Source: Minisyncoccota bacterium
GTDB lineage: Bacteria; Patescibacteriota; Minisyncoccia; Minisyncoccales; CG1-02-41-26
Direction: 5' to 3'
NCBI GenBank assembly: GCA_028718965.1
Contig: JAQUKS010000003.1
Location: 1-45,927 of the forward strand
Length of the DNA stretch: 45,927 nt
Part shown: piece by piece, positions 7,439 through 40,721 of the stretch
Position numbering within the stretch: position 1 is the stretch's first letter
Layout: each line of letters starts with the position of its first letter
Made by a program: the position numbers and the translations under genes
Notes under the pieces: model-generated
The model's input: only the letters and a program-made list of their open reading frames with translations
Database searches by the model: none
What the model was told of the DNA's origin: nothing

Positions 7439-8450
7439 ATGAAAAAACATACCATTCAACTGAATAATATCGCTAATGAGCTCCAATCGCTGGAGCAATG
7501 TCTTTGACACGGAGCGTTTCGACTTTTTTTCGAAAGAAATCGTTGATTTGAAAGAAATGCTTGCTTTGGGATTGATTAAGACTTCCGAAGATGAAGATAA
7601 TTTTTCCGTGAAGATCGCTTCTTTGGAAAAAGAACTGTTTGAGAATAAAAAAAAGATATTTTTAAACGGCAAATACGACGGATACGGAGCTATCCTTACT
7701 ATCAAGCCGGGGGCGGGCGGCAGGGATGCCCAGGATTGGGCGGCTATGTTGCTAAGGATGTATCAGAAATACTGCGAGCGGAAAAAATGGCTGTGTAAAA
7801 TATTATCCCAGAATTTCGCCGAAGGAGGAGGCCCGGAGGGCCGGATAGGCATCAAGGAAGTTGTTCTGGTTGTAAAGGGGGAAATGGCTTATGGCTTACT
7901 GAAAAGAGAAAGCGGCGGCCATCGCCTGGTAAGAATTTCTCCGTTTTCAGCTAAAAAATTAAGACATACGTCATTTGCCCAGGTTGAAGTGATACCGCAA
8001 CTATCTAACGAAACCGTCGAGGTAAGTTTGAAGCCCGAAGATTTGAAAATAGAAACTTTCCGTTCGGCCGGCCATGGCGGGCAGAATGTCAACAAAAGGG
8101 AAACCGCTGTTCGTCTCACGCATTTGCCTACGGGCCTTGCAGCATCTTCGCAGATAGAGAGAACGCAGATTATGAATAAGAAAATAGCTTTGAATTTTTT
8201 ATTGGCCAAGCTCGCGGCTTTACGGGAGAGCGAAAGGCAGCAGGAACTTCGGAATGAAAAATCAAAAATAGTCCATGGGGCAGGCGACAATAAAAAAAGC
8301 ACCGCTGATTTCGGCGGACAGATAAGGTCTTACGTGCTCCATCCGTATAAGTTGGTGAAAGACCATCGCACCGAATGTGAAACCAGTAATACGGAAGCGG
8401 TTCTGAACGGCGACCTTGAATGCTTTGTTAAGGCCGAAATTGAAATTTAA
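7439..8450 (+). CDS. prfB: peptide chain release factor 2, requires programmed +1 frameshift at 7502-7508
   Basis: Frame 0 reads ATG 7439 ... TGT CTT TGA C (MKKHTIQLNNIANELQSLEQCL-stop). Shifting +1 at CTT_TGA_C continues as GAC ACG... (DTERFDFF...), which is the long ORF in the track. SPF (RISPFSAKK) and GGQ (GHGGQNVNK) motifs identify RF2. A GGAG lies 6 nt upstream of CTT. Confidence 0.9.
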
Positions 8451-8457
8451 GATTACT

Positions 8458-9147
8458 ATGATAAAATTCGATAACGTGTCGAAAATCTATAATGGCGACA
8501 ATGAGCCGATTTCAGCGGTGAGAGAGGTGTCTTTTACGATTCAAGAGGGAGAGTTCGTCTGTCTTGTCGGGAAATCCGGCGCTGGCAAGACAACGCTTAT
8601 CAAACTCTTAACCGGCAATGAAAAGCCCACTTGCGGCCAGGTTTTCTTCCGTGAGACAGATATCCACGGCATTGTTTCCGCTGATTTGCAAAAAATAAGG
8701 CGTAAAATCGGCGTTGTTTACCAAGATTACAGATTGTTGCAGACCAAAACTGTCTTTGAAAATTTGGCGTATGTTATGCAGGTTATCGGGATACCCGATA
8801 CTGACATAAACAGGGACATAGCCCAGGTTTTGGAGATTGTCGGCCTAGAAACAAGAGCTTGCAGCTTTCCCGCGGAGCTTTCTGGCGGTGAAAGGCAGCG
8901 TTTAGCTATTGCCCGCGCTTTGATACATCGCCCCGAGCTTATTGTCGCTGATGAGCCGACCGGCAATTTGGATCCTTATCACACTTTCGGAATAGTGCAG
9001 CTGTTCAAAAAAATAAGCCAGATGGGCGCCACGATTGTTCTGGCCACTCATAATAAAGAAATCGTCGATAACTTGAAAAAAAGAGTAATAACCCTGGAGC
9101 AGGGTCGGATTATTTCGGATGACCCCGAAGGAAAATTTATTTTATAA
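8458..9147 (+). CDS. ftsE: cell division ATP-binding protein FtsE
   Basis: ABC ATPase with Walker [10 protein letters not shown], signature LSGGERQR and Walker B LIVADEPT, about 230 aa, immediately upstream of an FtsX-like permease. The start is ATG 8458 ([11 protein letters not shown]). Confidence 0.9.
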
Positions 9148-9151
9148 TTTT

Positions 9152-10069
9152 ATGCTCATAAATTTAAAAAGAATTTTAAAATTCGGCTGGCATAGTTTTA
9201 GTCGTAACAAGGGGCTGGGCTTCCAGGTTATTTTCATTATGGCCACGGCGGTATTTTTTATTCTGGTTTTCTTTTTAGGCAGGGGAGTGGGGCGGACTTT
9301 ATTCGATGAGATGGGCCGGAAAGTCGACATTTCGGTTTATTTCAAAAGCGAAACCACCGAGCAGGAAATTTTAGAGGTTAAAAACCGTCTTTCTTCGCTT
9401 TCCGACAAAATCAAAACAATCGAATACGTTTCCAAGGAAAGGGCCCTTACCATTTTCAAGGCGGAGCACCAGAGCGACGATCTTTACCTGAATGCTCTGG
9501 AAGAAGCCAAGGAAAATCCTTTATTGCCGTCTTTGAACATCTATTCTGATGATCCGAATTATTACGCGAAAATATCTGGCTTCTTGAAAGAGCCGCCCAC
9601 TAACGATATCGTAGAGAAAATTTCTTACGAGCAACCCAAAAACAGGCAAGCCATTGAAACATTGGCTGCAATCGCCAAAGGTATCAAAATTGTCGGGATC
9701 ATCATAGTCGGCTTACTTGGCCTTTTGGTAATTATCATTACTTCAAATATTATCAAGCTTACTTTTATTGTTTTAAAAGATGAAATCAGTACTATGAAGC
9801 TTGTTGGCGCTTCCGACTGGTTCGTGAGGGGGCCGTTTATGATTCAGACTTTTTTCTATGGGTTGTTCGCCGTGATAATCGTTGATACTTTTTCAGGAAT
9901 TTTGCTGTATTTCATAAGCGGGAAAGCGATTCATTGGTTTTCCGAATTTAATATTTTTAGTTATTTTTTCAGTAATTTGGCGGTTATTTTCGGCTTTCAG
10001 CTGGGTTTTGTCGCTCTGTTGGGGGCGGTTTCCACTTTGCTGGTAATGCGCAAACACCTTAAGGCCTGA
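9152..10069 (+). CDS. ftsX: cell division permease-like protein FtsX
   Basis: N-terminal LKRILKFGWHSFSRNKGL + TM, an extracytoplasmic loop of roughly 110 aa, and three C-terminal TM helices, matching FtsX topology; it is coupled to ftsE. An alternative ATG lies at 9119. Confidence 0.85.
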   Translation: MLINLKRILKFGWHSFSRNKGLGFQVIFIMATAVFFILVFFLGRGVGRTLFDEMGRKVDISVYFKSETTEQEILEVKNRLSSLSDKIKTIEYVSKERALTIFKAEHQSDDLYLNALEEAKENPLLPSLNIYSDDPNYYAKISGFLKEPPTNDIVEKISYEQPKNRQAIETLAAIAKGIKIVGIIIVGLLGLLVIIITSNIIKLTFIVLKDEISTMKLVGASDWFVRGPFMIQTFFYGLFAVIIVDTFSGILLYFISGKAIHWFSEFNIFSYFFSNLAVIFGFQLGFVALLGAVSTLLVMRKHLKA

Positions 10070-10090: not shown

Positions 10091-10163
10091 TGCGAGGTGG
10101 TGTAATTGGTAACACGTCGCGCTCTGGACGCGAAGACTCCAGGTTCGATCCCTGGCCTCGCAG
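10091..10163 (+). tRNA. tRNA-Gln (anticodon CUG)
   Basis: Acceptor tgcgagg/cctcgca (a U1-A72 pair, as in bacterial tRNA-Gln), D stem gtgt/acac, anticodon stem tcgcg/cgcga with loop ctCTGga, T arm ccagg-ttcgatc-cctgg, discriminator G. Confidence 0.9.
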
Positions 10164-10181
10164 CCGTGAATTTTGTACAGG

Positions 10182-10216
10182 AAACCGGGCTCGTTAAAGC
10201 CTGGTTTTTTGTTTAT
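10182..10216 (+). terminator. intrinsic terminator after tRNA-Gln
   Basis: A 9-bp stem, aaaccgggc (10182-10190) pairing with gcctggttt (10199-10207) with one G-U and an 8-nt loop, running into ttttttgtttattttt. Confidence 0.6.
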
Positions 10217-10248
10217 TTTTGGCTTAAAGTTATCCACAGTTTTTTAAT

Positions 10249-10276
10249 TTGACAGGCCATTTATGTAAGCTAAAAT
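10249..10276 (+). promoter_or_regulatory. candidate promoter of the giant gene
   Basis: TTGACA (10249-10254), a 16-nt spacer, then TAAAAT (10271-10276), about 37 nt upstream of ATG 10313 in an AT-rich spacer. Confidence 0.35.
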
Positions 10277-10312
10277 TATATAAATATATTCCATATCCAA
10301 TATCGGATTGTA

Positions 10313-13300
10313 ATGACAGAGCAAGAAATCAAAGTCAATAATTACATATCTCTGGCCGAGGCCGCCGCGATATATACTGAGCACTCTCAGGAGTATTTGA
10401 GTTTGCGGGCAAGGCAAGGAAAACTTAAAGCAATAAAAATCGGCCGAAACTGGCTCACTAAGAAAGAATGGGTCGAGAAATACGTCAGTCAGGTGAGTGA
10501 TAAAAATGGAAACAATGGTTCTATACGCGTATCCGATACTTTTCAAGAAGAGAAGCCGGTCTATCTGTCTTTGGCAGAAGCTGAAATTTATAGTGGGTAT
10601 TCGCAGGAATATTTGGGGTTGCGAGCGAGACAGGGGAAATTGCGCGCGGTAAAAATCGGCCGAAACTGGCTCACTAAGAAAGAATGGGTCGACGATTACA
10701 AGATTAAGTTAGGCATAAGTGAACGACGTTTACCTGTTGAACCCGGACTGACAAAAATTACCGCAATAGGGAGAATAGGGAGATTGCCGCAACCGGGAAA
10801 ACTTTTCCATCCGATAAAAGAAGCATTTCAAAATTTTATTTTTATCATTAAGGCGAAAAAACCAGCCATGATTCTCGGTGCGTTTCTGATTTTTTGTTCC
10901 GCGGGACTGGCTGCTGGCTACCCTTATGCTGAAAATTTCATGCGGAGTCTTTCTGGACATTCCGAAACCCAGCTTGGCAGCATTGTTTTAAGAGCGACTG
11001 AATTTGCCGGCTTGCTTGAAAATTCTGTTTCGAAAGATTATCAAAAAGCCTATTGGACTGCGGAAAAATTTTCTGAAAAATTTTATAGAATTAAAAATTC
11101 GTTCGCTTGGGCCGTTTCTCGTTCTTTAATCAATTTAGAGAAGTCAGTCCGGCAAAATAGAGATAATCTGACGAATATCGTCACGGCATCGGAGATATTG
11201 GAGGATTATCTGGAAAAGTCCATGGCTGTTTCCTGTTCTTCCACCTGGCAGGATTTCAGAAATAAAAACAATCTGGCTCAAGGATTTATCAATCGTTTTA
11301 CTGCCGATGAATACCAGCGCCGAAAACAAAAAGCCGATGATTTCGCCGAGCAGCTGGCGGCAGGCTGGGGAGATGTCGAATCATCTTTGAGCGACATCGG
11401 CCTGGAATTGAAACGCGTCGCGGAAGATTATTCGTCGCTGGCCGCTGATAATTTGCGTTACGGCAATTATTTTTTACAGAGCTATTTGGCAGGGGAGTGG
11501 GAAAGATTTCAACAGCAGAGCTATGAATTATTTGCGCTGTCTCGGGGCGCGAAGCATACGGTAGAAAAATTTTTCGCCGCCGGCCAAGAGAAAACTTTTG
11601 AATATCGAAATTCGATTTCCTCACGCACGTTTGGACGTCTGGAGTTCATTGAAAACGAATTTTTTGCCGATGTGACTGCTTCACGGCAGAGCTTTTATGA
11701 CTTTGCCGCTAAAGCTTTTGAAACCGGACTTCAACAAAAACAAAAAGCCGATGATTTCGCCGAGCAGCTGGCGGCAGGCTGGGGAGACGCGAAGTTATTT
11801 TTAAGTTATGCCAGTCTGAAGTTAAAACGCGTCGCGGAAGATTATTCGTCACTGGCCGCTGATAATTTGCGCTATAATTCGCAGGCTGTTTCTTATCACG
11901 TTAACCAATGGGGAGATGTCATAGCGGATCGGCTGGAAGATCTCAGCGGTGATTTGATTATAGGCGTCACGGAAAGAGTGAGTTCTTTCATCGCCCAGGC
12001 CAGCCTCAAAACCGAAGATGCCGCTTATGCCATCGCTTACGTAACGGGCTATCTGGCTTCATCGGGAGCTGATAATTTTCAACAGACAACCCAGTCATTA
12101 TGGGGAAAGATAATATCCAGCGCGGATGCGGTTGATAATAAAATCGTCGAGGGCGTACAGAATACAATGGACAGGTTAAGATTCCTTACATATATATCAG
12201 ATAAAGTCGGCGAAGATATAAAAAACGGTTATGAATTCGTGATGAATCCCTGGTGGAAAGGAGAGACCCGGCCGATTGCCGAAAAGCCGTCGCGAACCAT
12301 TAATATAGAGCCGTTCGATCCGTTTCCGGACGATGATGAGGAAGAGGCCGTTGAGGAAGAACAAGTTTTACCCGCTTCCGCGGAACAATCAATCGTTCAA
12401 GTTTCGCCTGTTAAAGGGACATCCGAATCCGCGCCTCGGGAAACGCTGATTCAGCCGACTAAAGAAATCACCCGTGAGATTTTGCGCATTGATGACGCCT
12501 CGCTGGCACTATTGAAAGGACAGGTAACGGAATTGCAGAAAAATTACGCAAGCATTGTGGGCTTGCAGGATTTGGCCGCCAAGATACAATCGGTCCCACC
12601 GGTTTATTCAGTGGCGGCTGCTTCACCGGTTTATGTCGGCTCGACCGGTATTCAAGTCGGCGGGGGAGCCAATTTAAATACTTTGGGAGTGAGCGGCTCG
12701 GTGGGCATCAGAAATTTGTCGGTCGGGGGTTCGGCTGAAATCGGCGAGACTTCAAGCGATGTTTTGACAGTAAACGCTTTTGCTGATTTTCTTTCCGATG
12801 TCATAGTGCGCAAAGATCTTGAGATCGCGGGCGACTTGACGATAGGGGGCAGCCAAAGCGGAGGAGGAGTTGTTTCGTTTTCAGCTTCAAGCTCTTCGCC
12901 GATTTTGACTTTGAATCAGACGGGTTCGGGGCAGATAGCGCAGTTCAAGGACGCGGGCAATGTTGTTTTTGAGATTGCAAAAGGCGGAGCTATAACGATA
13001 ACCTCCACTTCTTCTCCGCAGTTAAGGGTTGCTTACGATGGCTCAAATTATCTCATTCTTGAGGTTTCCTCCACCGGAGATGTTTCAGCGACCTCCACCG
13101 GAGCCTTGAGTCTTACCGCTAACGCCGCTTCCGTATGGCAAGTTGTTTCCGCCCCGCTCACCATAAAAACAGATACGAGCGGCGATATTATTCTGTCTTC
13201 AGCGGGCAATCTTACTCAAAAATTCGCGACAAGCTCGGCTTATGGCTTGTATCAGGGAGAAATCGCCCGCTTGGCCATTAATACCGCAGGAGATGTTTCT

Positions 13301-16300
13301 CTTACCGCTTCTTCAACCATAAGTTTGACTGGAAACGTAGGCATCGGCACTTCCTCTCCTGTAGCCAAGCTGGCCGTAGAAGGGAACACCTTTTTCCGGG
13401 GGAATACAACCACTACCGGCGATTTTTTCGTGGGAGGCAATACGACAACCACCAACCTTTACATTTCGAACATTCTAACTGCTGGGTATCTTGATGTTGC
13501 GGGAAACGCGACGACAACCGGGAATCTATTCGTTGGCGGTAATGCCACTACCAGCGGTGATCATTTTATTGGCGGCAGTCTGCAGGTAAACGGCAGTTCC
13601 ATTGTTTTGGGCACATCATCCACGGCTTATCTTGTCGTGAATTCGGCCGTGGCTTCCGATTTTGTCCCTGATCAAAACGCGGTGCGCAACTTAGGCTCGC
13701 CGGCTTATTTTTGGGATTTTGTTTATACTGGCACGCTGGTAGCCACCAGCATAGAGGCTGCCTCAAGCACGCTTGGCGGAACAGCCAGCGCCAACTTTGT
13801 GCTTAATGCCGATAATATTACCGCTGACAATGAAAACGCGAATTTGATTTTTTTCAGAGGCACGGTCGTGCCCAATGCCCTAATAACCTGGGATTCCACC
13901 GCCGATCGCTTTGACATCAATCAGCCGTTTTTTATTCAAAACGATTCTTCGACTACCACGGTAATATCTTTGGATGTTTGGGGATCTGCCGGCCAGAGCG
14001 CCGATCTATTCAGAGTATCTTCGTCATCGGATGACGCTTTTCTAAATGTCACTTCGGCCGGCAACGTGGGTATCGGGACAAGTAGCCCGGTGGCCAGATT
14101 TGCCGTTGAGGGGGACAGTTTTTTGCGGGGCAATGCCACCACTACCGGCATTTTTTACACTGAAGAAGGAATGACATCGGCTGGCAATATTTCCGTCAAT
14201 ACGGCGGACGTTGTTTTGGATTCGGGCAATTTGAATATTACCTCAGGAGGCATAACGCTTACTGACGGGAATTTTAATCTTAATAACGGCAACTTGTCTC
14301 TTGATGCTAACAGCAGTTTTTACGTTGCTTCGTTGACGCAGGGCTCGATACCGTTTATCGGTTCGGGCGGTATGCTGTTGGAAGATAATTCAAACCTATA
14401 CTGGAATGACACTACTAATAGATTAGGCGTCGGCACCACTACTCCGGCCGCAAAATTAGATGTTTGGGGAAGCTTTCAGGTCGGCACTTCCACTACGCCG
14501 GTTCTTACCCCGTTGTTTATCGCCAATACTGGTTCGGCCACTGTTGGCATCGGCACCTCGACTCCGGCCGCCAAATTCTCTATAGCGGGTTCGTCCGGCG
14601 TCAATGCTTTTAATGTTGCTTCTTCTTCCGGCGCTTCAATGTTAATGGTTGACCAGTACGGCAATGTGGGTATTGGTACTTCAAGCCCTGGAGCCAAGCT
14701 TGAGATAGCGGGCAACAAAGACGCTACCGAATTTGTCGTTCGGGCGAATTCTTCTCAATCCAACACTAATCCTTTGATAAAGCTTTTGTCGAACGGAGGA
14801 ACGGAATTGCTTCGCATTCATTCCGATAATGCCAACAATCTTTTTGTCGGCACCAACACCGGACGGGTCAACAATGTCTCCGGAGTGGGTAGTCAGGGTT
14901 TGTTTAACGCTTTTGTGGGAGCTAACGCCGGCTTTTCCAACACAACCGGATATCAAAACAGCGCCATGGGAGCCAATGCCCTTTACAGCAATAATACCGG
15001 CTACACTAACAGTGCCATGGGCTTTAATTCTTTGTTTTTCAATACCACCGGCTACCAGAACGCGGCCATGGGAGCCAATGCCCTTTATTCCAACATCTCC
15101 GGCTATACTAATACAGCGGTCGGCTCAAGCGCCCTTTATCTGAATACTGCGGGCTATGGCAACAGTGCTTTGGGAGTTTCGGCTATGCTTTCCAATACCA
15201 CAGGTTACGATAATCTGGCCGCGGGCAACAGCGCTTTGCTTTCCAACACCACGGGTTATTCTAACGTGGCTTTGGGTAGCTATGCTCTGTTCGGTAATTT
15301 GCCGACAAGCAAGGCCATTACCGCTTTCACTGATGCGGGCGGGGGCAACACCACGGTTACTTCAGAAAGCCATAATCTGAATAACGGCACGATTGTTCAG
15401 ATTTACGGCACGACCAATTACAACGGCTCTTATACTATTTCCGGAGTTACCGCCGATACCTTTAATATAGTCAAAGCTTTTGTGGCTGACGACGCCACCG
15501 GATGGTGGGGGATCGACAGCGAGGGAAGATACAACGTGGCTTTGGGCGGTAACGCGGGGCGAAGCAACACCACCGGCTCTGCCAATACCTTTATCGGCTA
15601 TAACGCCGGATACACTGGAACTTCGGCCAGTCTTACCAATGCGGCTTGTCTGGGCTACGAGTGCCAGGTGGCGGCCAGCAGCGCCTTGATCTTGGGTGGA
15701 ACAGGAGTTAACGCGGTGAAAGTGGGTGTTGGAACAACCACACCAAACTATGTTCTGGATATTCTTGGCGCCTCCGGCACCGGTTCTTTGCACATCGCTT
15801 CCTCGAGCGGATCCAGTATGCTTGCCGTCAATGAATATGGCAACGTCGGTATCGGCACGACCACGCCTTCGGCTAATTTCCATGTCGTTGGAACGGCGAC
15901 GACGAATTTATTTCAAGTTACACGCACAGGCGTCGGAACTTTTGGAATGTTGTTTGATGCTAATGCTGGTAATGGCGTATCGTTAAGATTCAGCGGAACT
16001 AATTTTGTCCGTTCGTCTGGAAATGGTGGTTTTTCCGTAGGTTCGTATGCCAGCAGTGCTTCAGGTTCTGCTGCCCCAGAAAATGGAATAATAGTTAGTG
16101 GCAAGGTAGGCATCGCCACTACTTCTCCCGTAGCCAAATTAGCCGTGGAAGGGGATACCTTTTTTAGAGGTAATACCACCACAACCGGTAATCTTTTCAT
16201 CGGAGGCAACGCCACCACCACTGATCTCTATGTTTCCAATGTTCTCACTGCCGGCTATCTTAATGTCAACGGCACTACCACTATCGCTGGCAATCTTGTT

Positions 16301-19300
16301 CCTTCGGCCACCAATACCTACAACGTCGGCACTACCAATTATCGCTGGAATGAGGGCTGGTTCTCGACCGTGAACATTGGCACATCCACCTGGTCGATCA
16401 ATCAGCCCGATAATCAGCGGCTGTCTTTTTGGAACAGCTCTTCGGGCGCGGGAGTTGAAAAACTAACCATTACTCAAACCGGCTCTCTTGGCATTTCCAC
16501 CTCCTCTCCTTCCGCTCTTTTGGCCATAACCGGCACTTCTTCGGTTGCTTCTTTTGCTATCGCTTCTTCTACCGGCGCCTCGTTGTTTATGGTCGGCCAA
16601 TACGGCAATGTGGGCATCGGCACATCGAGTCCTTCGGCCAGACTTGATATTTTGGCCAGGGCCGCCTGGCCGAGCTTGCACATAGCTTCTTCTACCGGAG
16701 CCAACCAATTGTCAATCAACGAATACGGTCTGTTAAGCTTCGGCTTGCCCGACAACCAGACGTCTGCCATGACGATAGGGGAGAACTCAAATACCTATCT
16801 TACCTTCGACACCACCGACGGCGCAGAGAAGATAGTTATGGGCAAGAATATGGAGATCGGGCCGTTGGAGATTGACGCTGATTCTGGTGCAGTCAATTTC
16901 GTCAATATGAACATTGTGGCAACCTCTTCGGCCACGGGCACGGCAGAGAGCTTGAGCGTTGCCTTGGACGGTAATGCCGTTTTGACCGTATATGGCGAAT
17001 CAACCGGATATACCGCTAACTTGCAGAATGCCAGGGTCGGCATCGGCACGACCACCCCGACGGCCTTGCTTTCGGTAGCCGGAAATCCTTACTCAACAAG
17101 CCCTTTGTTAAGAATCTCGACTTCAACGACCGAAGCATTATACATTGATATAGCCGGTAATGTCGGCATCGGCACCACCAGCCCCCAGGCTAAGCTTCAT
17201 ACAGATTCAAGAGAAACCGGAGCGAGTGCTGTCACTCCGACTTATTATTATCAACAGGCGCAGAATTATTACCTTGCTCCTTCCGGCGATGCTTCGTATA
17301 GTGTTTATTACGGACAGAGCGAGGACGTTTATTTGGACTCAAGTAACACCTATCCGATCGCAGCCATTGGCGGCAATAATGTGACTGTTCAGTTGCAGGG
17401 TTCGGGAGTTATAACTTCAGGCGATGGTATTGTTTCAAATCTGTCTAATTATGCCACCAGCACTGCTTTGAAGACAATCTGGGCTAATGGCGTGAATTAT
17501 AACAGGGCTTCCTCGTTTTTTTACGGGTTGCAGGCCAATGTGAGCAACTGGGCTAATTCATCCGGGACCGGAAACATCACCACGGCCAGAGCCGGGAGAT
17601 TCAGATTGCAGAATTATGCCCAGAACGATTCTGGCGCAACCGGAGCGGCCAATATGACAACAGCCCAGGTCGTTTACGCCAACATTGAAAATGGCGCGAC
17701 CGGGGTTGTCGGCTATAACGGAACCATTGGCACGGCAGCGGGCTTTTATTATGATTTGGAAAACAGCGCGGGCGGGCAGATAGGCACAAGCTACGGCGCT
17801 TATTTTGCCGCTCCGACGAACGCTGGCACCATAACCAATCATTACGGTATATATCTGGCCGACCAGACGGTATCCGGCACGACCAACAATTTCTCCATTT
17901 ATTCGGCCGGGGGCACGAACTACTTTGGTGGTAATGTGGGTATTGGCACCTCCACGCCCCAGACAAAACTCGATGTTGTGGGTAGTTTCAGAGTGGGCAC
18001 CTCCACCACCCCGCTCATCACGCCAACCTTCATGGTTGATACTGGCAGCCAGAGAGTGGGCATTGGCACCTCAACCCCGAATTACCGTTTGGATATTCTG
18101 GGTTTAGCTGGCACTGATTCTTTCCACGTTGCTTCCTCAACCGGCTCTTCTATGCTCACCCTGAACCAGGCCGGCTCTCTCAAAATTAATAATCGTCTGA
18201 TAGTTTCTCCCACCGGGAATTCATATTATGACGATACCGGAATAGCCGAAAACGGTCCGGCCATATATTTGAACAGGAGCATTGGCGCTGAAAACAGCAC
18301 CAATGAACACGGAATTATCGATTACACTAATTTTAACCGTTCCACTAAGGCCTACGCCTCATTCGACGTTCAGACAAGATTGACTGGAACATACAATTAC
18401 AACCATTTCGTCGGTTTCCAGAACAGGGGGGACATGGCCTCCTCGGGAACTTTGGACAACTATTACGCCTTTTTGTCCGTCCCTAGGGGAGACGCGGGAA
18501 CGATCACCAATTATTATCATTTCACCAATAATGATGCCACCTATGCTGTCAGTTCAGCCATTGATAACGAGTATGGCTTATACGTGAAATCGCTCAACGG
18601 AACCAATAAATTCGGTGTTTACGTTCAATCCGATAAGAGCTATTTCGGCGGCAACGTCGGCATTGGCACTACCACCCCTCAGGTAAAGCTTCATCTTTAC
18701 GATAACACCAATGTGATCACCGGCTTGAGGGTAGAGAACATAAGCAGTGGCACGGTTGCTGACGCCAGATTATCCACCTATGACGCTTCGGGCCATTATT
18801 TCGTTATTAGCACTCCGGGAACGGGAAATACCGGATCAAGTATCTTCGGTCTAGCGAGGACATCGGCTGATTTCATCTTCAATACCAGCGGAACGACCCG
18901 CGATCTGGCCATAGGAACCACTGATGCAAAAAGTTTGATTCTTGGGACGAACAACGCCGAGAGATTGAGGATAAGCAGCAGCGGTAATGTCGGCATCGGC
19001 ACGACCACCCCGGCCACCAAGCTGGACGTCTGGGGAAGCTTACAGGTTGGAACATCCTCTCGCCCCGTGCTTTACGCTAACACCGGCAGCGGCTATGTGG
19101 GTCTTGGTACAACCACTCCTAACTACAATTTGGACATCCTCGGCACTTCGGGCGTTGGTTCTTTGCACATTGCTTCTTCAAGTGGAGCTACGATGCTTGT
19201 TGTAAATGAATATGGCAACGTGGGCATCGGCACATCCAGTCCTGCTGCCCGGCTGGACATCACTGAAAACCGCACTTTGGGCACGATAATAAACGCCAAT

Positions 19301-21820
19301 TACGGCGCGGCCACCACTTTGGCAGGCAATGTAATCGGCCTTAATCTGGACTTGTCCAGCAATGTTACCCCGGGTTCTTACAATCTTACCGGTTCAAAAA
19401 TCATTTTGCCGTCAGGCGGCACGGGCACCAATACTTTTGCCCAGTATTACGAGGGTTCAAGTGAGCTTTACAATATCGGCTCGGTTTCGGCCCAGTTCAA
19501 TGTGCCGGCGAGCTTCAACGCGGCCGGAGATGTTTCATTGGCTTATGATTTGATAATGAGCAACGGTTCGGCCTCTTACATAAAATTCCAGGGCCCGGGT
19601 TATATAAAAACCGAGGATGCTTCGGGGAATTATGACCTCACGGTTTCAGCTGCCAACGCGGGCAATGTCGTCATCCTGGAAGACGCTTCGACCACTGCTT
19701 CGACGATTGGCTTGGAAATCGTCAACTCGAGCATCAATCAGACGACCGACGGCTTGAGCAAATACGGCCTTTATATCGACAGCTCAACCGGCGACTTTGC
19801 CGGAAGCTCGGGAACGAACACGGTTAACTATGGTCTCTATGTGGTTCAGCCAGCCGGGGCTGACCTCAATTACGCGGCTGTTTTCGCCGGCGGAAGCGTG
19901 GGTATTGGTACTTCTTCGCCTCTGGCCGCCTTGGACATCTATTCTGCCTCGACCCAGTTGAGGATAGCCAGCTCAACCGGCTTTGCCAAGTTTTACCTTG
20001 ATTACACTGGTAATCTCAACATAGACACTGCTTTCTCGACTACTTCGGCTTTTCAAATCACCTCTTCCAATATTGTCGCCAATCAGCCGATGTCTTTCAA
20101 CTCGCCCGGAGATGTTTCTTTTTCCTATGATCTGCTTATGGCTAATCCTTCATCTGCCTATTTCAAGTTTTCGGGAGCCGGCTACATCCTTACCGAATCT
20201 CCTTTCGGAAATTATAATCTTACTTTGTCGGCCGCCAATGCTGGAAAAGTGGTCGTTGACGATGACCTTCAGATAACCGGCCAGACGCAGTTCGTTGCCA
20301 CGAGTACCCAGACGGTTTCGACCACCACGGCTGTTCAGGTCGGTGGAGCGACATATGTGACGCTCACCGCCACCAGCTCGGTTATTTTGAGCTCCGCTCC
20401 GACCATTGCCGACGGCGTTAATGGTCAGATAGTCATTATCCGCGGCGCTTCAACCACAGCCACCGTAACCGTTCAGGATCAGGATACATTGGCCTCAAGT
20501 AATCTGCAGCTTGGCTCTACCAACCGCCAGCTGGGCAATGGCGACACTTTGGCTCTGATGTTCAATGGCACGGACTGGGTGGAGCTTTGGTTCTCGGGCG
20601 GCATTGACGCTGATTATGCCGAAATGTATAGGATAAGCGATGATGTTGAAGCTGGTGAGATTGTTTCCTTCGGTGATGATTATCTTAAAGTAGGCAAGGC
20701 CAAACTGGGTGATAAGTCGCTGGCCGGCGTCATTTCCGCCCAGCCCGCATATTTGATCGGTCAGGAATTCAGCTATGAAATGCAGATGCCGGTGGCCCTG
20801 GCCGGACGGGTGCCGGTCAAGGTTTCTTTGGAAGCTGGCGAGATCAAGAAAGGAGACATTCTGGTGCCCTCGACCCGACCCGGCTTTGCCATGAGGTTCA
20901 ATCAGGATTATTTGAAGACGATCGGCGCTTCCAGCACTTTTGATTTGGAAAACATACCGGTGGTCGGTATCGCTCTTGAGGATTATGCGACCTCCAGCCA
21001 GGCGAGCGAATTTTCCGAAACGATTTACAAAACCTATAAGCTCAAATTTAAAAATGAAGCCGATAGAGCCGAGATAAACCGCCTTAACGCCAAATACAAG
21101 ATTAGGGATTTGAGCGGGAATCTTTCCGTTTCCGAGGCCTCGACTGGCTGGCAGCTTGTTGAGATAAGAGCCGAATATGCGGATAAATATCTTGCTTCGT
21201 CTCTCGTCGAGATATCGCAGTGGGTTTCCGATAATACGGTGCGCCAAGATAATCCCGAATTTCGTTCTCCGGAAAAGCAGACGGTTCTCTCCATGCTTAA
21301 GTCCGGTTTTATAGGATTATCCTCGGTTTCCAGGCTCACTGTCGAGGAGGAGGACGGCAAGTTAGTGGTCAAGGCCGCCGGAGGGCTGTTTGATCTCGGT
21401 TTGGAGATTTTAAGCGATGGCACGGTCCGGGTGGCCAAACTGGAGGTAGGGGAATTGCAGGTCGGCTCGTCTGAAAAAAGGACCGGTATAACCATTTATG
21501 ATGAAGATACCGGCCAGCCGTATTGTTTGAAGATGAAGGCTGGGGCGATGGTCTCGCTGGCCGGAAAATGCGGCCAGGAAGAAGCGGAGATCATATCAGT
21601 GCCCGAAGCGCCCGCTCTTGAGCCGGAGGAGACGGAAAGCGAATCAGTGAGTCAGCCGGAGGAGGAAATCGAAGAAGTTGAAACGGAAACGCCAGCAGAG
21701 GCGGAGGAGGAAGAGGTGCAAACAGCAGAACCGGCCGCTGATGAGCAATCTGACCAGGAGCAAGTCGAAGAACAAACCGAAGAGCAGGTCCAGCCAAGCG
21801 AACAGGACGCGCAAGAGTAA
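10313..21820 (+). CDS. giant (3,835 aa) membrane-anchored fibre/adhesin-like protein: 2x HTH - TM - duplicated helical module - tail-fibre-like repeats - Peptidase_G2-like C-terminal block - acidic tail
   Basis: A single uninterrupted 11,508-nt ORF. Its modules:
- aa 11-57 and 83-128: duplicated HTH-like modules (..GKL(K/R)A(I/V)KIGRNWLTKKEWV..).
- aa 184-203: one hydrophobic helix preceded by KAKK.
- 19 copies of the (N/R)VGIGT(S/T)(S/T)PxAKLxVxG motif.
- Seven 17-aa NTTGYxNSAMGxNALxS repeats.
- C-terminal GGIDADYAEMY...AGVISAQPAYLIG...VALAGRVPVKV block.
- Last ~80 aa roughly 40 percent Glu.
It is Ser/Thr/Gly/Asn/Ala-rich throughout. Confidence 0.9.
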   Translation: MTEQEIKVNNYISLAEAAAIYTEHSQEYLSLRARQGKLKAIKIGRNWLTKKEWVEKYVSQVSDKNGNNGSIRVSDTFQEEKPVYLSLAEAEIYSGYSQEYLGLRARQGKLRAVKIGRNWLTKKEWVDDYKIKLGISERRLPVEPGLTKITAIGRIGRLPQPGKLFHPIKEAFQNFIFIIKAKKPAMILGAFLIFCSAGLAAGYPYAENFMRSLSGHSETQLGSIVLRATEFAGLLENSVSKDYQKAYWTAEKFSEKFYRIKNSFAWAVSRSLINLEKSVRQNRDNLTNIVTASEILEDYLEKSMAVSCSSTWQDFRNKNNLAQGFINRFTADEYQRRKQKADDFAEQLAAGWGDVESSLSDIGLELKRVAEDYSSLAADNLRYGNYFLQSYLAGEWERFQQQSYELFALSRGAKHTVEKFFAAGQEKTFEYRNSISSRTFGRLEFIENEFFADVTASRQSFYDFAAKAFETGLQQKQKADDFAEQLAAGWGDAKLFLSYASLKLKRVAEDYSSLAADNLRYNSQAVSYHVNQWGDVIADRLEDLSGDLIIGVTERVSSFIAQASLKTEDAAYAIAYVTGYLASSGADNFQQTTQSLWGKIISSADAVDNKIVEGVQNTMDRLRFLTYISDKVGEDIKNGYEFVMNPWWKGETRPIAEKPSRTINIEPFDPFPDDDEEEAVEEEQVLPASAEQSIVQVSPVKGTSESAPRETLIQPTKEITREILRIDDASLALLKGQVTELQKNYASIVGLQDLAAKIQSVPPVYSVAAASPVYVGSTGIQVGGGANLNTLGVSGSVGIRNLSVGGSAEIGETSSDVLTVNAFADFLSDVIVRKDLEIAGDLTIGGSQSGGGVVSFSASSSSPILTLNQTGSGQIAQFKDAGNVVFEIAKGGAITITSTSSPQLRVAYDGSNYLILEVSSTGDVSATSTGALSLTANAASVWQVVSAPLTIKTDTSGDIILSSAGNLTQKFATSSAYGLYQGEIARLAINTAGDVSLTASSTISLTGNVGIGTSSPVAKLAVEGNTFFRGNTTTTGDFFVGGNTTTTNLYISNILTAGYLDVAGNATTTGNLFVGGNATTSGDHFIGGSLQVNGSSIVLGTSSTAYLVVNSAVASDFVPDQNAVRNLGSPAYFWDFVYTGTLVATSIEAASSTLGGTASANFVLNADNITADNENANLIFFRGTVVPNALITWDSTADRFDINQPFFIQNDSSTTTVISLDVWGSAGQSADLFRVSSSSDDAFLNVTSAGNVGIGTSSPVARFAVEGDSFLRGNATTTGIFYTEEGMTSAGNISVNTADVVLDSGNLNITSGGITLTDGNFNLNNGNLSLDANSSFYVASLTQGSIPFIGSGGMLLEDNSNLYWNDTTNRLGVGTTTPAAKLDVWGSFQVGTSTTPVLTPLFIANTGSATVGIGTSTPAAKFSIAGSSGVNAFNVASSSGASMLMVDQYGNVGIGTSSPGAKLEIAGNKDATEFVVRANSSQSNTNPLIKLLSNGGTELLRIHSDNANNLFVGTNTGRVNNVSGVGSQGLFNAFVGANAGFSNTTGYQNSAMGANALYSNNTGYTNSAMGFNSLFFNTTGYQNAAMGANALYSNISGYTNTAVGSSALYLNTAGYGNSALGVSAMLSNTTGYDNLAAGNSALLSNTTGYSNVALGSYALFGNLPTSKAITAFTDAGGGNTTVTSESHNLNNGTIVQIYGTTNYNGSYTISGVTADTFNIVKAFVADDATGWWGIDSEGRYNVALGGNAGRSNTTGSANTFIGYNAGYTGTSASLTNAACLGYECQVAASSALILGGTGVNAVKVGVGTTTPNYVLDILGASGTGSLHIASSSGSSMLAVNEYGNVGIGTTTPSANFHVVGTATTNLFQVTRTGVGTFGMLFDANAGNGVSLRFSGTNFVRSSGNGGFSVGSYASSASGSAAPENGIIVSGKVGIATTSPVAKLAVEGDTFFRGNTTTTGNLFIGGNATTTDLYVSNVLTAGYLNVNGTTTIAGNLVPSATNTYNVGTTNYRWNEGWFSTVNIGTSTWSINQPDNQRLSFWNSSSGAGVEKLTITQTGSLGISTSSPSALLAITGTSSVASFAIASSTGASLFMVGQYGNVGIGTSSPSARLDILARAAWPSLHIASSTGANQLSINEYGLLSFGLPDNQTSAMTIGENSNTYLTFDTTDGAEKIVMGKNMEIGPLEIDADSGAVNFVNMNIVATSSATGTAESLSVALDGNAVLTVYGESTGYTANLQNARVGIGTTTPTALLSVAGNPYSTSPLLRISTSTTEALYIDIAGNVGIGTTSPQAKLHTDSRETGASAVTPTYYYQQAQNYYLAPSGDASYSVYYGQSEDVYLDSSNTYPIAAIGGNNVTVQLQGSGVITSGDGIVSNLSNYATSTALKTIWANGVNYNRASSFFYGLQANVSNWANSSGTGNITTARAGRFRLQNYAQNDSGATGAANMTTAQVVYANIENGATGVVGYNGTIGTAAGFYYDLENSAGGQIGTSYGAYFAAPTNAGTITNHYGIYLADQTVSGTTNNFSIYSAGGTNYFGGNVGIGTSTPQTKLDVVGSFRVGTSTTPLITPTFMVDTGSQRVGIGTSTPNYRLDILGLAGTDSFHVASSTGSSMLTLNQAGSLKINNRLIVSPTGNSYYDDTGIAENGPAIYLNRSIGAENSTNEHGIIDYTNFNRSTKAYASFDVQTRLTGTYNYNHFVGFQNRGDMASSGTLDNYYAFLSVPRGDAGTITNYYHFTNNDATYAVSSAIDNEYGLYVKSLNGTNKFGVYVQSDKSYFGGNVGIGTTTPQVKLHLYDNTNVITGLRVENISSGTVADARLSTYDASGHYFVISTPGTGNTGSSIFGLARTSADFIFNTSGTTRDLAIGTTDAKSLILGTNNAERLRISSSGNVGIGTTTPATKLDVWGSLQVGTSSRPVLYANTGSGYVGLGTTTPNYNLDILGTSGVGSLHIASSSGATMLVVNEYGNVGIGTSSPAARLDITENRTLGTIINANYGAATTLAGNVIGLNLDLSSNVTPGSYNLTGSKIILPSGGTGTNTFAQYYEGSSELYNIGSVSAQFNVPASFNAAGDVSLAYDLIMSNGSASYIKFQGPGYIKTEDASGNYDLTVSAANAGNVVILEDASTTASTIGLEIVNSSINQTTDGLSKYGLYIDSSTGDFAGSSGTNTVNYGLYVVQPAGADLNYAAVFAGGSVGIGTSSPLAALDIYSASTQLRIASSTGFAKFYLDYTGNLNIDTAFSTTSAFQITSSNIVANQPMSFNSPGDVSFSYDLLMANPSSAYFKFSGAGYILTESPFGNYNLTLSAANAGKVVVDDDLQITGQTQFVATSTQTVSTTTAVQVGGATYVTLTATSSVILSSAPTIADGVNGQIVIIRGASTTATVTVQDQDTLASSNLQLGSTNRQLGNGDTLALMFNGTDWVELWFSGGIDADYAEMYRISDDVEAGEIVSFGDDYLKVGKAKLGDKSLAGVISAQPAYLIGQEFSYEMQMPVALAGRVPVKVSLEAGEIKKGDILVPSTRPGFAMRFNQDYLKTIGASSTFDLENIPVVGIALEDYATSSQASEFSETIYKTYKLKFKNEADRAEINRLNAKYKIRDLSGNLSVSEASTGWQLVEIRAEYADKYLASSLVEISQWVSDNTVRQDNPEFRSPEKQTVLSMLKSGFIGLSSVSRLTVEEEDGKLVVKAAGGLFDLGLEILSDGTVRVAKLEVGELQVGSSEKRTGITIYDEDTGQPYCLKMKAGAMVSLAGKCGQEEAEIISVPEAPALEPEETESESVSQPEEEIEEVETETPAEAEEEEVQTAEPAADEQSDQEQVEEQTEEQVQPSEQDAQE
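10434..10692 (+). repeat. 43-nt perfect direct repeat pair (10434-10476 and 10650-10692) inside the duplicated HTH modules
   Basis: taaaaatcggccgaaactggctcactaagaaagaatgggtcga occurs twice, 216 nt apart and in frame. It encodes (A)(I/V)KIGRNWLTKKEWV in both HTH copies. Confidence 0.95.
11323..11787 (+). repeat. 51-nt perfect direct repeat pair (11323-11373 and 11737-11787), core of a 414-nt (138-aa) tandem-like duplication
   Basis: aaaacaaaaagccgatgatttcgccgagcagctggcggcaggctggggaga occurs twice. A second near-identical block (aaacgcgtcgcggaagattattcgtc[g/a]ctggccgctgataatttgcg) follows in both copies. The protein reads KQKADDFAEQLAAGWGD...LKRVAEDYSSLAADNLRY twice. Confidence 0.95.
14939..15295 (+). 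repeat. seven tandem 51-nt (17-aa) coding repeats within the giant gene
   Basis: NTTGYQNSAMGANALYS / NNTGYTNSAMGFNSLFF / NTTGYQNAAMGANALYS / NISGYTNTAVGSSALYL / NTAGYGNSALGVSAMLS / NTTGYDNLAAGNSALLS / NTTGYSNVALGSYALFG (aa 1543-1661). Confidence 0.9.
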
Positions 21821-21823
21821 AGT

Positions 21824-21846
21824 TTGTCGGTATCTGGTATCGACAG
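21824..21846 (+). repeat. REP-A hairpin copy 1 (ttgtcggta-tctgg-tatcgacag)
   Basis: A 9-bp stem (two G-U pairs) with a 5-nt loop, 3 nt after the giant-gene stop and 10 nt before the LamG-A start. It is an identical 23-mer to copy 3 (32451-32473). Confidence 0.85.
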
Positions 21847-33033: not shown

Positions 33034-33056
33034 CTGTCGGTACCAGATACCGACAG
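33034..33056 (-). repeat. REP-A hairpin copy 4, inverted orientation (loop ccaga)
   Basis: ctgtcggta-ccaga-taccgacag, the exact reverse complement of copy 2. It begins 5 nt after the RAYT-like stop codon. Confidence 0.9.
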
Positions 33057-40680: not shown

Positions 40681-40704
40681 AATCCGGTGTCGACACCGGA
40701 TTTT
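40679..40704. terminator. perfect palindrome / bidirectional intrinsic terminator after eno
   Basis: aaaatccggtgtc|gacaccggatttt: an 11-bp stem around a tcga loop, flanked by A4 and T4. Confidence 0.6.
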
Positions 40705-40721
40705 AGAAGTTCAACGAACAT

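What the first reader, a model, noticed from the sequence alone, without database searches (positions are those of the whole stretch)
10313..10921. Two tandem DNA-binding-type HTH modules sit on the predicted cytoplasmic side of a 3,835-aa surface protein
Seen in the sequence:
- aa 11-57 and 83-128 are duplicates: (I/L)SLAEA..IY...SQEYL.LRARQGKL(K/R)A(I/V)KIGRNWLTKKEWV. They include a 43-nt perfect DNA repeat.
- They are followed by a Lys-rich stretch (IIKAKK) and the only hydrophobic helix (aa 184-203).
- By the positive-inside rule the first ~183 aa would be cytoplasmic and more than 3,600 aa would be outside.

From recall: the pattern (helix, then G-K-hydrophobic-x-x-x-K-I-G-R-x-W, then a C-terminal acidic/aromatic helix) resembles excisionase/MerR-type HTH_17 domains. 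This was not verified by search.

Inference: membrane-tethered DNA-binding regulators are known (ToxR/CadC logic), but coupling such a module to a multi-kilobase extracellular fibre is not a described architecture. Possibilities include contact-dependent signalling, nucleoid tethering at the attachment site, or an HTH repurposed for protein contacts.
Basis: partly seen in the sequence, partly recalled or inferred. Interest (0 to 1): 0.8.

Follow-up and report, generated by a model that had tools for sequence, protein, structure and literature searches.

The report
Membrane-tethered DNA-binding head on giant fibre
A 3,835-residue surface fibre protein of a candidate-phyla-radiation (CPR) bacterium starts with two excisionase/MerR-type DNA-binding modules on the cytoplasmic side of its single membrane anchor, and this head recurs on thousands of CPR envelope proteins whose promoters share conserved DNA motifs, which suggests an undescribed direct link between cell-surface fibres and DNA.

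Summary
ORF 10313-21820 (3,835 aa) begins with two about 70% identical modules. They contain a 43-nt perfect DNA repeat. A Lys-rich stretch and the protein's only hydrophobic helix (aa 184-203) follow.

Each module is modelled with pLDDT above 90 as a beta-alpha-alpha-beta-beta-alpha winged helix. The best fold matches are TraN, RdfS/Xis excisionases, RacA, CarH and BldC. TIGR01764 passes its cut-off on the aa 1-231 fragment. Pfam HTH_17 falls below its cut-off here but passes in homologues.

The architecture is not a one-off:
- 6,311 representative clusters carry this head at the N-terminus.
- The genome records that name a lineage are nearly all CPR/Patescibacteria.
- Proteins range from 69 to 6,890 aa, with one to three modules followed by one TM.
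- The genes often lie just downstream of ftsW/rodA or ftsEX (ftsEX in this window).

New evidence: intergenic regions before head genes carry the palindrome TATCSGATA (37/75 versus 10/286 other regions) and a DnaA-box-like TTATCCACA 8-10 nt upstream of the -35 (40/75 versus 12/286). Both occur in this window's promoter.

Best reading (about 0.5): a ToxR-like, membrane-tethered DNA-binding head that acts at its own family's promoters. Rivals are a protein-docking head and a non-specific nucleoid tether. I found no paper describing this.

The parts
10230..10238 (+). TTATCCACA box, identical to the DnaA-box consensus, 10 nt upstream of the -35 hexamer
   Evidence: There is an exact match here, and the only other exact copy in the window is intragenic on the minus strand. 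The motif occurs in 40/75 intergenic regions that precede head genes against 12/286 others. The gap to TTGACA is 8-10 nt in 13 of 14 cases.
10249..10276 (+). Sigma-70-type promoter TTGACA-16-TAAAAT
   Evidence: It matches 11 of 12 consensus positions. It is the only intergenic TTGACA in the window. The tRNA-Gln terminator at 10177-10212 separates it from upstream transcription.
10294..10309 (+). TATCCAATATCGGATT: two overlapping imperfect copies of the TATCSGATA palindrome, 4 nt before the ATG
   Evidence: Shown. The same 16-mer sits before the ATG in L001, L003, L004 and L014. The family-wide palindrome is present in 37/75 head-preceding regions against 10/286 others.
10313..21820 (+). ORF of 3,835 aa: HTH-HTH-TM-giant fibre protein
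10343..10492 (+). Winged HTH module 1 (aa 11-60)
   Evidence: AF2 pLDDT is 95-97, with elements E11-13, H14-20, H26-35, E41-43, E46-50, H51-66. It gives TIGR01764 and HTH_17 stretches.
10562..10708 (+). Winged HTH module 2 (aa 84-132)
   Evidence: AF2 pLDDT is 91-97, with elements H87-94, H98-107, E113-115, E118-121, H123-132. It is the second stretch.
10434..10476 (+). 43-nt perfect repeat, copy 1 (copy 2 at 10650-10692)
   Evidence: It is interpreted as a gene-conversion tract.
10650..10692 (+). 43-nt perfect repeat, copy 2
10814..10861 (+). Juxtamembrane helix ending in the Lys-rich IIKAKK (aa 168-183)
   Evidence: AF2 helix 168-181. Charge count.
10862..10921 (+). Single transmembrane helix (aa 184-203)
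   Evidence: It is the only segment above the hydropathy threshold. AF2 places a helix at 184-214. The LIFCSAGL core is conserved in orthologues.
10922..21817 (+). Extracytoplasmic part (aa 204-3835): helical stalk, then G/S/T/N-rich fibre with GNVGIGT repeats and an acidic C-terminal tail
   Evidence: Translation. PHROG tail fibre, tail spike and virion structural protein hits fall within nt 12593-19801, with E-values down to 8e-17. Giant homologues have the same composition.

Best explanation
The gene encodes a bitopic (N-in, C-out) envelope protein.

Shown by tools:
- The cytoplasmic 183-aa head holds two independently folded excisionase/MerR-type winged-HTH modules joined by disordered linkers.
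- One TM helix follows, then about 3,630 aa of tail-fibre-like ectodomain.
- The protein belongs to a very large family with the same head, in which the genome records that name a lineage are nearly all CPR.
- The family's genes have a shared promoter layout. One to five ATCSGAT/TATCSGATA sites are often spaced one helical turn apart. A TTATCCACA box lies 8-10 nt upstream of a consensus -35.

Inferred mechanism:
- The head binds DNA while tethered to the membrane.
- Its most likely targets are the ATCSGAT-type repeats at promoters of its own gene family, one module per site.
- The fibre protein would then act as a ToxR-like one-component transmembrane regulator and DNA-to-membrane tether. It would feed back on its own expression and that of its paralogues, possibly in response to the state of the ectodomain.

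Whether it activates or represses is open. In this window the sites lie between the -10 and the ATG, a position typical of repression. In many relatives they lie at about -45 to -75, a position typical of activation.
For: Fold and family:
- TIGR01764 scores 34.5 bits (cut-off 28.8) on aa 1-231.
- HTH_17 and TIGR01764 are the only families matched, apart from one AbiEi_4 hit, by 36 and 29 of 48 family modules.
- AF2 pLDDT exceeds 90 for both modules.
- Foldseek gives probability 0.9-1.0 to DNA-binding wHTH proteins: TraN (two modules in one chain), RdfS, Pukovnik Xis (TM 0.71), RacA-DNA, CarH, BldC, GIsul2 Xis and SoxR.
- Basic residues in the recognition helix and wing are near-invariant: R24 in 297/298, K32 in 292/298, R35 in 254/298, W37 in 298/298.

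Topology.

Family size and architecture.

Cis-elements specific to head genes:
- TATCSGATA is in 37/75 head-preceding intergenic regions against 10/286 others (p=1e-20).
- TTATCCACA is in 40/75 against 12/286 (p=6e-22).
- The palindrome result holds among regions that have TTGACA (28/54 vs 3/59).
- 73 copies were seen in 34.9 kb, where composition predicts fewer than one by my estimate.
- The spacing between adjacent sites peaks at 10-11 nt (17 of 66 adjacent pairs).
- The sites occur in every synteny class.

Link between head and motif:
- Heads with the canonical recognition helix have the site in 48/59 cases. Divergent helices have it in 9/23 (p=4e-4).
- Two-module heads have the site more often (39/50) than one-module heads (18/34).
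- The two modules are kept alike by gene conversion, which fits recognition of repeated identical sites.

Precedents:
- TraN binds DNA sequence-specifically with two wHTH motifs in one monomer (PMC10877727).
- ToxR tethers DNA to the membrane (PMC10629549, title and significance text).
Against: - No binding was measured.
- The motifs could be bound by other factors. A stand-alone 69-70-aa MerR-family gene, 73-95% identical between species, lies within about 1.5 kb upstream of the head gene in 16 loci. TTATCCACA is the DnaA-box consensus.
- A 9-bp palindrome is short for two wHTH modules.
- The helix-motif association was defined post hoc and is not corrected for phylogeny.
- 20 of 84 upstream regions have neither motif.
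- The near-invariance of the putative DNA-contact surface across paralogues is unusual for specific transcription factors. It would equally fit one conserved protein partner.
- CbpM, a MerR-like fold that binds a protein, is among the fold matches.
- For this protein, Pfam HTH_17 is below its gathering score (21.8 vs 27). TIGR01764 on the full-length protein is also below its cut-off (25.8 vs 28.8).
Confidence: 0.5

Rival explanations
1. Protein-docking head, following RodZ or CbpM logic. The wHTH pair no longer binds DNA. Instead it docks the cytoplasmic end of envelope proteins onto a conserved cytoplasmic partner. Candidates are a divisome or elongasome component such as FtsA/FtsZ, FtsE or MreB, or an insertion or secretion factor. 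This would position or anchor fibres at sites of wall synthesis. The promoter motifs would be read by other factors (the small MerR protein, DnaA).
For: - Head genes lie directly downstream of ftsW/rodA (PF01098) in about 30 of 81 loci. They lie downstream of ftsE-ftsX in about 8 loci, including this window.
- The same surface is near-invariant on hundreds of different ectodomains, as expected for one shared partner.
- CbpM, which has a MerR-like fold and binds the CbpA J-domain, is among the fold matches.
- From established knowledge, not tested here: RodZ is HTH-TM-periplasmic domain, and its HTH binds MreB.
Against: - Head genes have their own promoters, and here a tRNA and a terminator separate the gene from ftsX. 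Synteny is therefore not operon membership.
- The conserved residues are those typical of DNA-contacting wHTH (basic recognition helix, K-x-G-R-x-W wing).
- The association of the canonical helix with the cis-motif is not explained.
- No partner was identified.
Confidence: 0.22
2. Non-specific nucleoid tether or mechanical anchor. The head binds DNA without sequence preference. Many copies on many envelope proteins would hold the nucleoid against the membrane, or give single-TM fibres a cytoplasmic hold in ultra-small cells. The function would be comparable to RacA or Noc, with no regulatory role.
For: - The fold class and basic surface fit DNA binding.
- Several paralogues occur per genome and per locus.
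- One to three modules act as beads on flexible linkers.
- RacA-DNA is among the best fold matches.
- The recognition surface does not diversify between paralogues.
Against: - It does not explain why conserved, phased sites mark the family's own promoters.
- It does not explain why those sites track the canonical helix.
- Excisionase and BldC-type domains usually recognise specific repeats.
Confidence: 0.15
3. Annotation artefact. The HTH region would be a separate small gene or an untranslated leader, with the fibre protein starting at the ATG at 10868, just inside the TM helix.
For: An in-frame ATG exists at 10868 (aa 186). No Shine-Dalgarno sequence precedes either start.
Against: - The reading frame is continuous from 10313.
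- The promoter lies directly upstream of 10313.
- The N-terminal Met and peptide are conserved in orthologues.
- The same HTH-then-TM order within one ORF occurs in 104 of 121 database proteins and in about 80 genome loci.
- Genes in this window generally lack SD sequences.
Confidence: 0.02

Closest known systems
ToxR / CadC / TcpP-type bitopic transcription regulators
   Same: They have an N-terminal cytoplasmic winged-helix DNA-binding domain, a single TM helix and a C-terminal extracytoplasmic domain. They bind promoters while membrane-tethered (PMC10629549; PMC5430869, listed).
   Different: Their DNA-binding domain is OmpR/PhoB-type, not excisionase/MerR-type. They have one domain, not a tandem pair. 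Their periplasmic sensor is about 100-250 aa, not a fibre of 3,600 aa. They are single regulators, not a multi-paralogue head reused on many ectodomains.
TraN of plasmid pIP501 (PDB 4p0z, 4pm3)
   Same: It has two excisionase/MerR-like wHTH motifs in one polypeptide. It is the best Foldseek match covering both modules. It binds DNA sequence-specifically through both recognition helices and wings (PMC10877727).
   Different: TraN is a small soluble cytosolic protein with the two halves packed as a rigid unit. Here the modules are separated by a disordered linker (RMSD 12-13 Å to TraN, pTM 0.36) and are fused to a TM helix and a giant ectodomain.
Excisionases (Xis, RdfS) and BldC-type stand-alone MerR-like proteins
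   Same: They share the beta-alpha-alpha-beta-beta-alpha fold and the K-x-G-R-x-W-type wing. From established knowledge, they multimerise on closely spaced repeats, which would fit the 10-11-nt spaced sites found here.
   Different: They are soluble proteins of 55-70 aa acting in recombination or development. None is membrane-anchored.
RodZ
   Same: The order is the same: cytoplasmic HTH, basic juxtamembrane stretch, single TM, extracytoplasmic domain. Both are linked to wall-synthesis genes (synteny with ftsW/rodA).
   Different: The RodZ HTH is Xre-type and binds MreB (own knowledge). No HTH_25 or DUF4115 match was seen here. The fold here is a winged excisionase type.
RacA (B. subtilis) and Noc
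   Same: RacA has a MerR-like wHTH and is among the top fold matches in complex with DNA. From own knowledge, both attach chromosomal DNA to the membrane or pole.
   Different: They are peripheral or soluble proteins without a TM helix or ectodomain.

Membership tests
Excisionase/HTH_17 winged-HTH domain (MerR superfamily; TIGR01764, PF12728) | Sequence-model match above the curated cut-off | tested here: inconclusive
   TIGR01764 scores 34.5 bits against a 28.8 cut-off on aa 1-231, but 25.8 on the full protein. Pfam HTH_17 scores 21.8 against 27. Two-module homologues pass HTH_17 at 31-40 bits. 36 of 48 modules hit HTH_17 at E<=0.01.
Excisionase/HTH_17 winged-HTH domain (MerR superfamily; TIGR01764, PF12728) | Beta-alpha-alpha-beta-beta(wing)-alpha fold matching solved members | tested here: met
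   AF2 pLDDT exceeds 90 for both modules. Foldseek gives probability 0.9-1.0 and target TM 0.58-0.71 to RdfS, Xis, RacA, BldC and GIsul2 Xis.
Excisionase/HTH_17 winged-HTH domain (MerR superfamily; TIGR01764, PF12728) | Binds double-stranded DNA | not testable with these tools
   The evidence is indirect only: a conserved basic helix and wing and family-specific promoter motifs.
ToxR-like bitopic one-component regulators | Cytoplasmic N-terminal DNA-binding domain, one TM, extracytoplasmic C-terminal domain | tested here: met
   There is a single hydrophobic helix, and positive-inside favours N-in. The ectodomain is fibre or FN3 type. Topology is predicted, not measured.
ToxR-like bitopic one-component regulators | OmpR/PhoB-type winged-helix DNA-binding domain | tested here: not met
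   There is no Trans_reg_C match. The only families hit are HTH_17 and TIGR01764. It therefore works like this group at most and is not a member.
ToxR-like bitopic one-component regulators | Regulates transcription from specific promoter sites | not testable with these tools
   Candidate sites exist at 10294-10309 and across the family.
RodZ | Xre-type HTH (HTH_25) and C-terminal DUF4115 domain | tested here: not met
   Neither family appears in Pfam scans of the head or of small paralogues.
TraN-like tandem wHTH proteins | Two wHTH motifs in one chain | tested here: met
   (alignments of 135-137 columns spanning both modules).
TraN-like tandem wHTH proteins | Compact soluble protein with fixed packing of the two halves | tested here: not met
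   The inter-module linker has pLDDT below 50. RMSD to TraN is 12-13 Å and pTM is 0.36. A TM helix and an ectodomain are present.
Phage tail-fibre-like surface fibres | Sequence similarity of the ectodomain to tail fibre or tail spike families | tested here: met
   PHROG tail fibre, tail spike and virion structural protein families match at E from 8e-17 to 1e-5 within aa 761-3163. There is no Pfam or PDB sequence match.

The most novel reading that the evidence does not exclude
CPR bacteria may possess a lineage-wide, one-protein outside-in pathway. Giant host-contact fibres and many smaller envelope proteins would be wired directly to DNA through tandem excisionase-type wHTH heads. These heads would recognise phased ATCSGAT sites in the promoters of their own gene family. 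Ectodomain state (contact, tension, cleavage or release of the head) would then set expression of the whole surface-protein regulon, possibly coupled to the cell cycle through the adjacent DnaA-type box and the ftsW/ftsEX neighbourhood.
Probability: 0.25. Interest if true: 0.85.

Novelty: new variant of a known kind. Interest (0 to 1): 0.7.

Why it matters
CPR/Patescibacteria make up a large share of bacterial diversity. They live attached to host cells, and how they sense and regulate is largely unknown.

A family of thousands of envelope proteins, including proteins of up to 6,890 aa, shares one cytoplasmic DNA-binding head and one promoter layout. If the head binds those promoters, this would be a simple and testable route from the cell surface to gene expression, or from the envelope to the nucleoid.

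The work gives concrete reagents for testing: a head fragment of 140-183 aa and a roughly 90-bp promoter fragment (10220-10312). It also flags a conserved regulon signature, TATCSGATA plus a DnaA-type box, that can be searched for in any CPR genome.

Tried and rejected
- My first specificity test of the upstream motifs suggested they were general promoter motifs. It was flawed. It counted only 200 nt upstream as 'head upstream', whereas these intergenic regions have a median of 328 nt. The region-based test reversed the conclusion.
- Sequence searches against PDB found nothing meaningful. I tried the head, a 50-sequence profile, a 48-module profile and the C-terminal 672 aa. The only hit was a chance ankyrin match.
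- Pfam and NCBIfam found no domain in the ectodomain.
- I considered an RNA-level role for the 5'-UTR motif and rejected it. Site positions range from -14 to -650 and often lie upstream of the -35.
- I considered oriC as the source of the DnaA boxes and rejected it. The boxes recur before head genes in at least five unrelated synteny classes.
- The three ATCSGAT sites within 10302-10815 of this window are not a family feature. The first 600 nt of head genes have 0.24-0.29 sites per kb, against 3.2 per kb upstream.
- The AF2 model of a small ftsW-linked paralogue (P0018) gave only pLDDT 55-70 for its conserved C-terminal domain, so no fold search was run on it.
- Eight literature searches found no description of the architecture. 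The CPR pilus preprint I checked is unrelated.
Full report
**1. The observation**

ORF 10313-21820 on the plus strand encodes 3,835 aa. It starts at the first ATG after an in-frame stop at 10271.

Residues 11-57 and 84-129 are duplicates. 51-aa segments are 70% identical. At DNA level, 114 nt are 79% identical. They include a 43-nt perfect repeat at 10434-10476 = 10650-10692.

The Lys-rich IIKAKK (aa 178-183) precedes the only segment of the protein that passes a TM-like hydropathy threshold. That segment is aa 185-203, with a mean of 1.90; the next best is 1.41. K+R is 4 against 1 in the 15 residues before and after the helix, and 8 against 3 over 40 residues.

**2. Gene boundaries**

- tRNA-Gln (10091-10165) and its terminator (10177-10212) lie upstream.
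- A near-consensus promoter follows: TTGACA-16-TAAAAT at 10249-10276, 11 of 12 matches.
- Genes in this window generally lack Shine-Dalgarno sequences.
- The N-terminal peptide MT(E/S)QEIK, both modules and the TM core LIFCSAGL are conserved in orthologues from Gribaldobacteria-type and other CPR genomes.
- A downstream start at 10868 is therefore very unlikely.

**3. What the modules are**

Sequence models:
- NCBIfam TIGR01764 (excisionase-family DNA-binding domain) matches aa 1-231 with two stretches. It scores 34.5 bits against a cut-off of 28.8, but 25.8 bits for the full protein.
- Pfam HTH_17 gives 21.8 bits, below its 27-bit cut-off.
- Close two-module homologues pass HTH_17 at 31-40 bits.
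- Of 48 family modules scanned singly, 36 hit HTH_17 and 29 hit TIGR01764. Apart from one AbiEi_4 hit, no other family appears.

Structure:
- AlphaFold2 with a 50-sequence alignment models both modules at pLDDT above 90 as beta-alpha-alpha-beta-beta-alpha.
- The linkers (aa 67-84, 133-167) are disordered, and a long helix runs through the TM segment.
- Foldseek against the PDB returns TraN of pIP501, aligned over both modules, with probability 0.98.
- For single modules it returns RdfS excisionase, RacA-DNA, Pukovnik Xis (target TM 0.71), CarH, GIsul2 excisionase, BldC and SoxR. It also returns the protein-binding MerR-like CbpM.
- The two modules are not predicted to pack like TraN (RMSD 12-13 Å, pTM 0.36).
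- Sequence searches of the PDB find nothing.

The recalled HTH_17/excisionase assignment is thus supported mainly by fold and by family-level sequence evidence.

**4. It is a family, not a curiosity**

- A search with aa 1-231 found 1,126 protein clusters. The named ones are Patescibacteria/CPR.
- Among the best 120 plus the query, 56 have two modules and 63 have one.
- 104 of 121 have a TM helix after the modules. Positive-inside favours N-in in 75, is neutral in 19 and is opposed in 10.
- A profile of the 51-aa module against 1.84 billion representatives found 6,311 proteins at E<=1e-3 and 2,263 at E<=1e-10.
- In the best 150 the module is always N-terminal. Lengths run from 69 to 6,890 aa, and 21 exceed 1,000 aa. 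Some have three modules.
- In species-representative genomes, 347 loci were found. The 80 retrieved include five head-bearing ORFs still open after more than 3,400 aa, and about 30 longer than 1,000 aa. Most record titles name CPR lineages or just 'bacterium'; about a dozen are titled Gammaproteobacteria or Burkholderiales, which I take to be mislabelled or contaminated bins.
- Orthologue L001 has the same HTH-HTH-TM-fibre order. L002 has one module on a fibre of more than 1,184 aa.
- Giant ectodomains are G/S/T/N-rich, low in charge and free of Cys.
- This protein's ectodomain matches PHROG tail-fibre, tail-spike and virion structural protein families, with E down to 8e-17. Smaller relatives carry FN3-type domains.
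- All of this fits a C-out topology.

**5. The duplication**

Within-protein identity of the two modules averages 0.72, against about 0.60 between proteins. In 16 of 47 two-module genes the copies share exact DNA tracts of 30-140 nt with very high third-position identity. The 43-nt repeat in this window is therefore one example of recurrent gene conversion or re-duplication that keeps the two modules alike.

**6. Genomic setting**

Clustering of all neighbours in 81 loci gave these patterns (window annotation):
- The head gene lies directly downstream of an FtsW/RodA-family gene in about 30 loci. The common order is pilin-pilin-unknown-LigA-FtsW-head.
- It lies downstream of ftsE-ftsX in about 8 loci, including this window.
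- It lies next to a divergent smpB in about 8 loci.

Several genomes and loci hold more than one head gene. Downstream in this window are three LamG-rich surface proteins.

**7. Promoter motifs (new)**

Discovery and specificity:
- A k-mer comparison showed strong enrichment of ATCSGAT/TATCSGATA, TTATCCACA and TTGACA upstream of head genes.
- My first specificity control wrongly suggested these were general promoter motifs, because it treated only 200 nt as upstream.
- Classifying whole intergenic regions corrects this. The palindrome TATCSGATA occurs in 37 of 75 regions preceding head genes (73 copies), against 10 of 286 other promoter-capable regions (p=1e-20).
- TTATCCACA occurs in 40 of 75 against 12 of 286 (p=6e-22).
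- The palindrome contrast persists among regions that contain TTGACA (28/54 vs 3/59).
- Several of the 'other' cases are in fact next to head genes that my pattern missed.

Layout:
- Sites come in one to five copies.
- Adjacent copies are most often 10-11 nt apart (17 of 66 pairs).
- TTATCCACA sits 8-10 nt upstream of the -35 in 13 of 14 cases.
- A recurrent layout is two ATCSGAT sites, then TTATCCACA, then N9, then TTGACA.
- In this window the promoter has TTATCCACA at 10230-10238 and the pair TATCCAATATCGGATT at 10294-10309, 4 nt before the ATG. The same 16-mer precedes the ATG in L001, L003, L004 and L014.

Link to the head:
- Heads with the canonical recognition helix (YSQ[E/D]YLSLRARQGKL) have the site in 48 of 59 cases.
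- Divergent helices have it in 9 of 23 (p=4e-4). This grouping was made post hoc and is not corrected for phylogeny.

**8. Mechanism**

Shown:
- The fold class.
- The single TM and charge asymmetry.
- The family-wide architecture.
- The family-specific, phased promoter sites.

Inferred:
- The head binds DNA, probably these sites, while tethered to the membrane. It would then act like a ToxR-type bitopic regulator and DNA-to-membrane tether.
- Two like modules on a flexible linker match two like sites one helical turn apart.
- TraN shows that two wHTH motifs in one chain can read DNA specifically (PMC10877727).

I put this at about 0.5.

Main caveats:
- A highly conserved stand-alone 69-70-aa MerR-family gene lies within about 1.5 kb upstream of the head gene in 16 loci. 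It is absent from this window and could be the factor that reads the palindrome.
- TTATCCACA is the DnaA-box consensus, so DnaA may read that box.
- The unvarying recognition surface would also fit a single conserved protein partner. The ftsW/ftsEX neighbourhood gives that RodZ-like reading some weight (about 0.22).
- A non-specific nucleoid tether is a third option (about 0.15).
- An annotation artefact is very unlikely (about 0.02).

**9. Novelty**

Bitopic membrane proteins with a cytoplasmic HTH are known (ToxR/CadC/TcpP, RodZ). This one fails their membership tests, because it has neither an OmpR-type nor an Xre-type domain. It also differs in four other ways:
- It uses a tandem excisionase-type head.
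- It attaches that head to ectodomains of any size, including giant fibres.
- It forms a multi-paralogue family that appears restricted to CPR.
- It carries its own promoter signature.

Eight full-text searches found no description. I rate it a new variant of a known kind, with interest 0.7.

Noticed in passing
window 10230-10238; L001, L003, L004, L005, L036, L061, L073, L074 and others: An exact DnaA-box consensus (TTATCCACA) sits 8-10 nt upstream of the -35 of head-gene promoters. It is present in 40/75 head-preceding intergenic regions and occurs in both orientations overall. This suggests DnaA or cell-cycle input to these surface-protein genes.
   Followed up: partly
L020:2878-3084 (-); also L038, L016, L042, L077, L028, L032, L046, L047, L026, L014, L017, L009, L050, L075, L029: A stand-alone 69-70-aa MerR-family protein (PF00376, 47 bits) is 73-95% identical between species. 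It is encoded within about 1.5 kb upstream of the head gene in 16 loci and is absent from this 46-kb window. It is a candidate reader of the promoter motifs.
   Followed up: partly
L020:3838-3969 (+); L015, L028, L029, L032, L038, L046, L047: A conserved 38-45-aa ORF encodes a Cys-containing peptide with one hydrophobic helix (for example MYCYSFTQCLEQDLIWTIVILSLITPGLVLILRKK). It lies immediately upstream of, or overlapping, the head-gene start in 8 loci of the unk273-FtsW class.
   Followed up: no
P0018, P0008, P0009, P0030, P0038, P0039, P0053, P0073, P0078 (C-termini): About a quarter of the small (about 290-370 aa) head proteins end in a conserved extracytoplasmic domain of about 55 aa (EGxVVIPS...SFSDEVxVxPxDxxSGIIxPxF...GxxYxYxLVP). 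It has no Pfam match. AF2 models it as beta-alpha-beta-beta-beta at only pLDDT 55-70.
   Followed up: partly
window 21825-21839, 32254-32268, 32452-32466, 33041-33055 (-): There are four exact copies of TGTCGGTATCTGGTA (0.02 expected). They are parts of hairpin-forming repeats that flank and lie within the Y1_Tnp-like ORF 32283-33029, and one sits just after the giant gene's stop. They resemble REP elements associated with a RayT/IS200-like transposase.
   Followed up: partly
window 40722-40946 and 44032-44256: A 225-nt perfect direct repeat duplicates the 5' part of the pilin-like LamG gene (40687-41529). The second copy lies just upstream of the second Y1_Tnp-like ORF (44325-45080; PF01797, 32.7 bits).
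   Followed up: no
window 10302-10308, 10531-10537, 10809-10815: Three of the window's nine exact ATCSGAT sites fall within 510 nt at the 5' end of the giant gene. One is in the 5' UTR, one in the inter-module linker and one before the TM. This is not seen in other family members, so it may be chance.
   Followed up: yes
window 8416-10069 and loci L003, L004, L019, L059; L008, L021, L024, L025, L035, L062 and others: Head genes occupy conserved positions right after ftsE-ftsX or after pilin-pilin-unknown-ligA-ftsW/rodA across different CPR lineages. Meanwhile their length varies from about 290 to more than 2,300 aa at the same position.
   Followed up: partly
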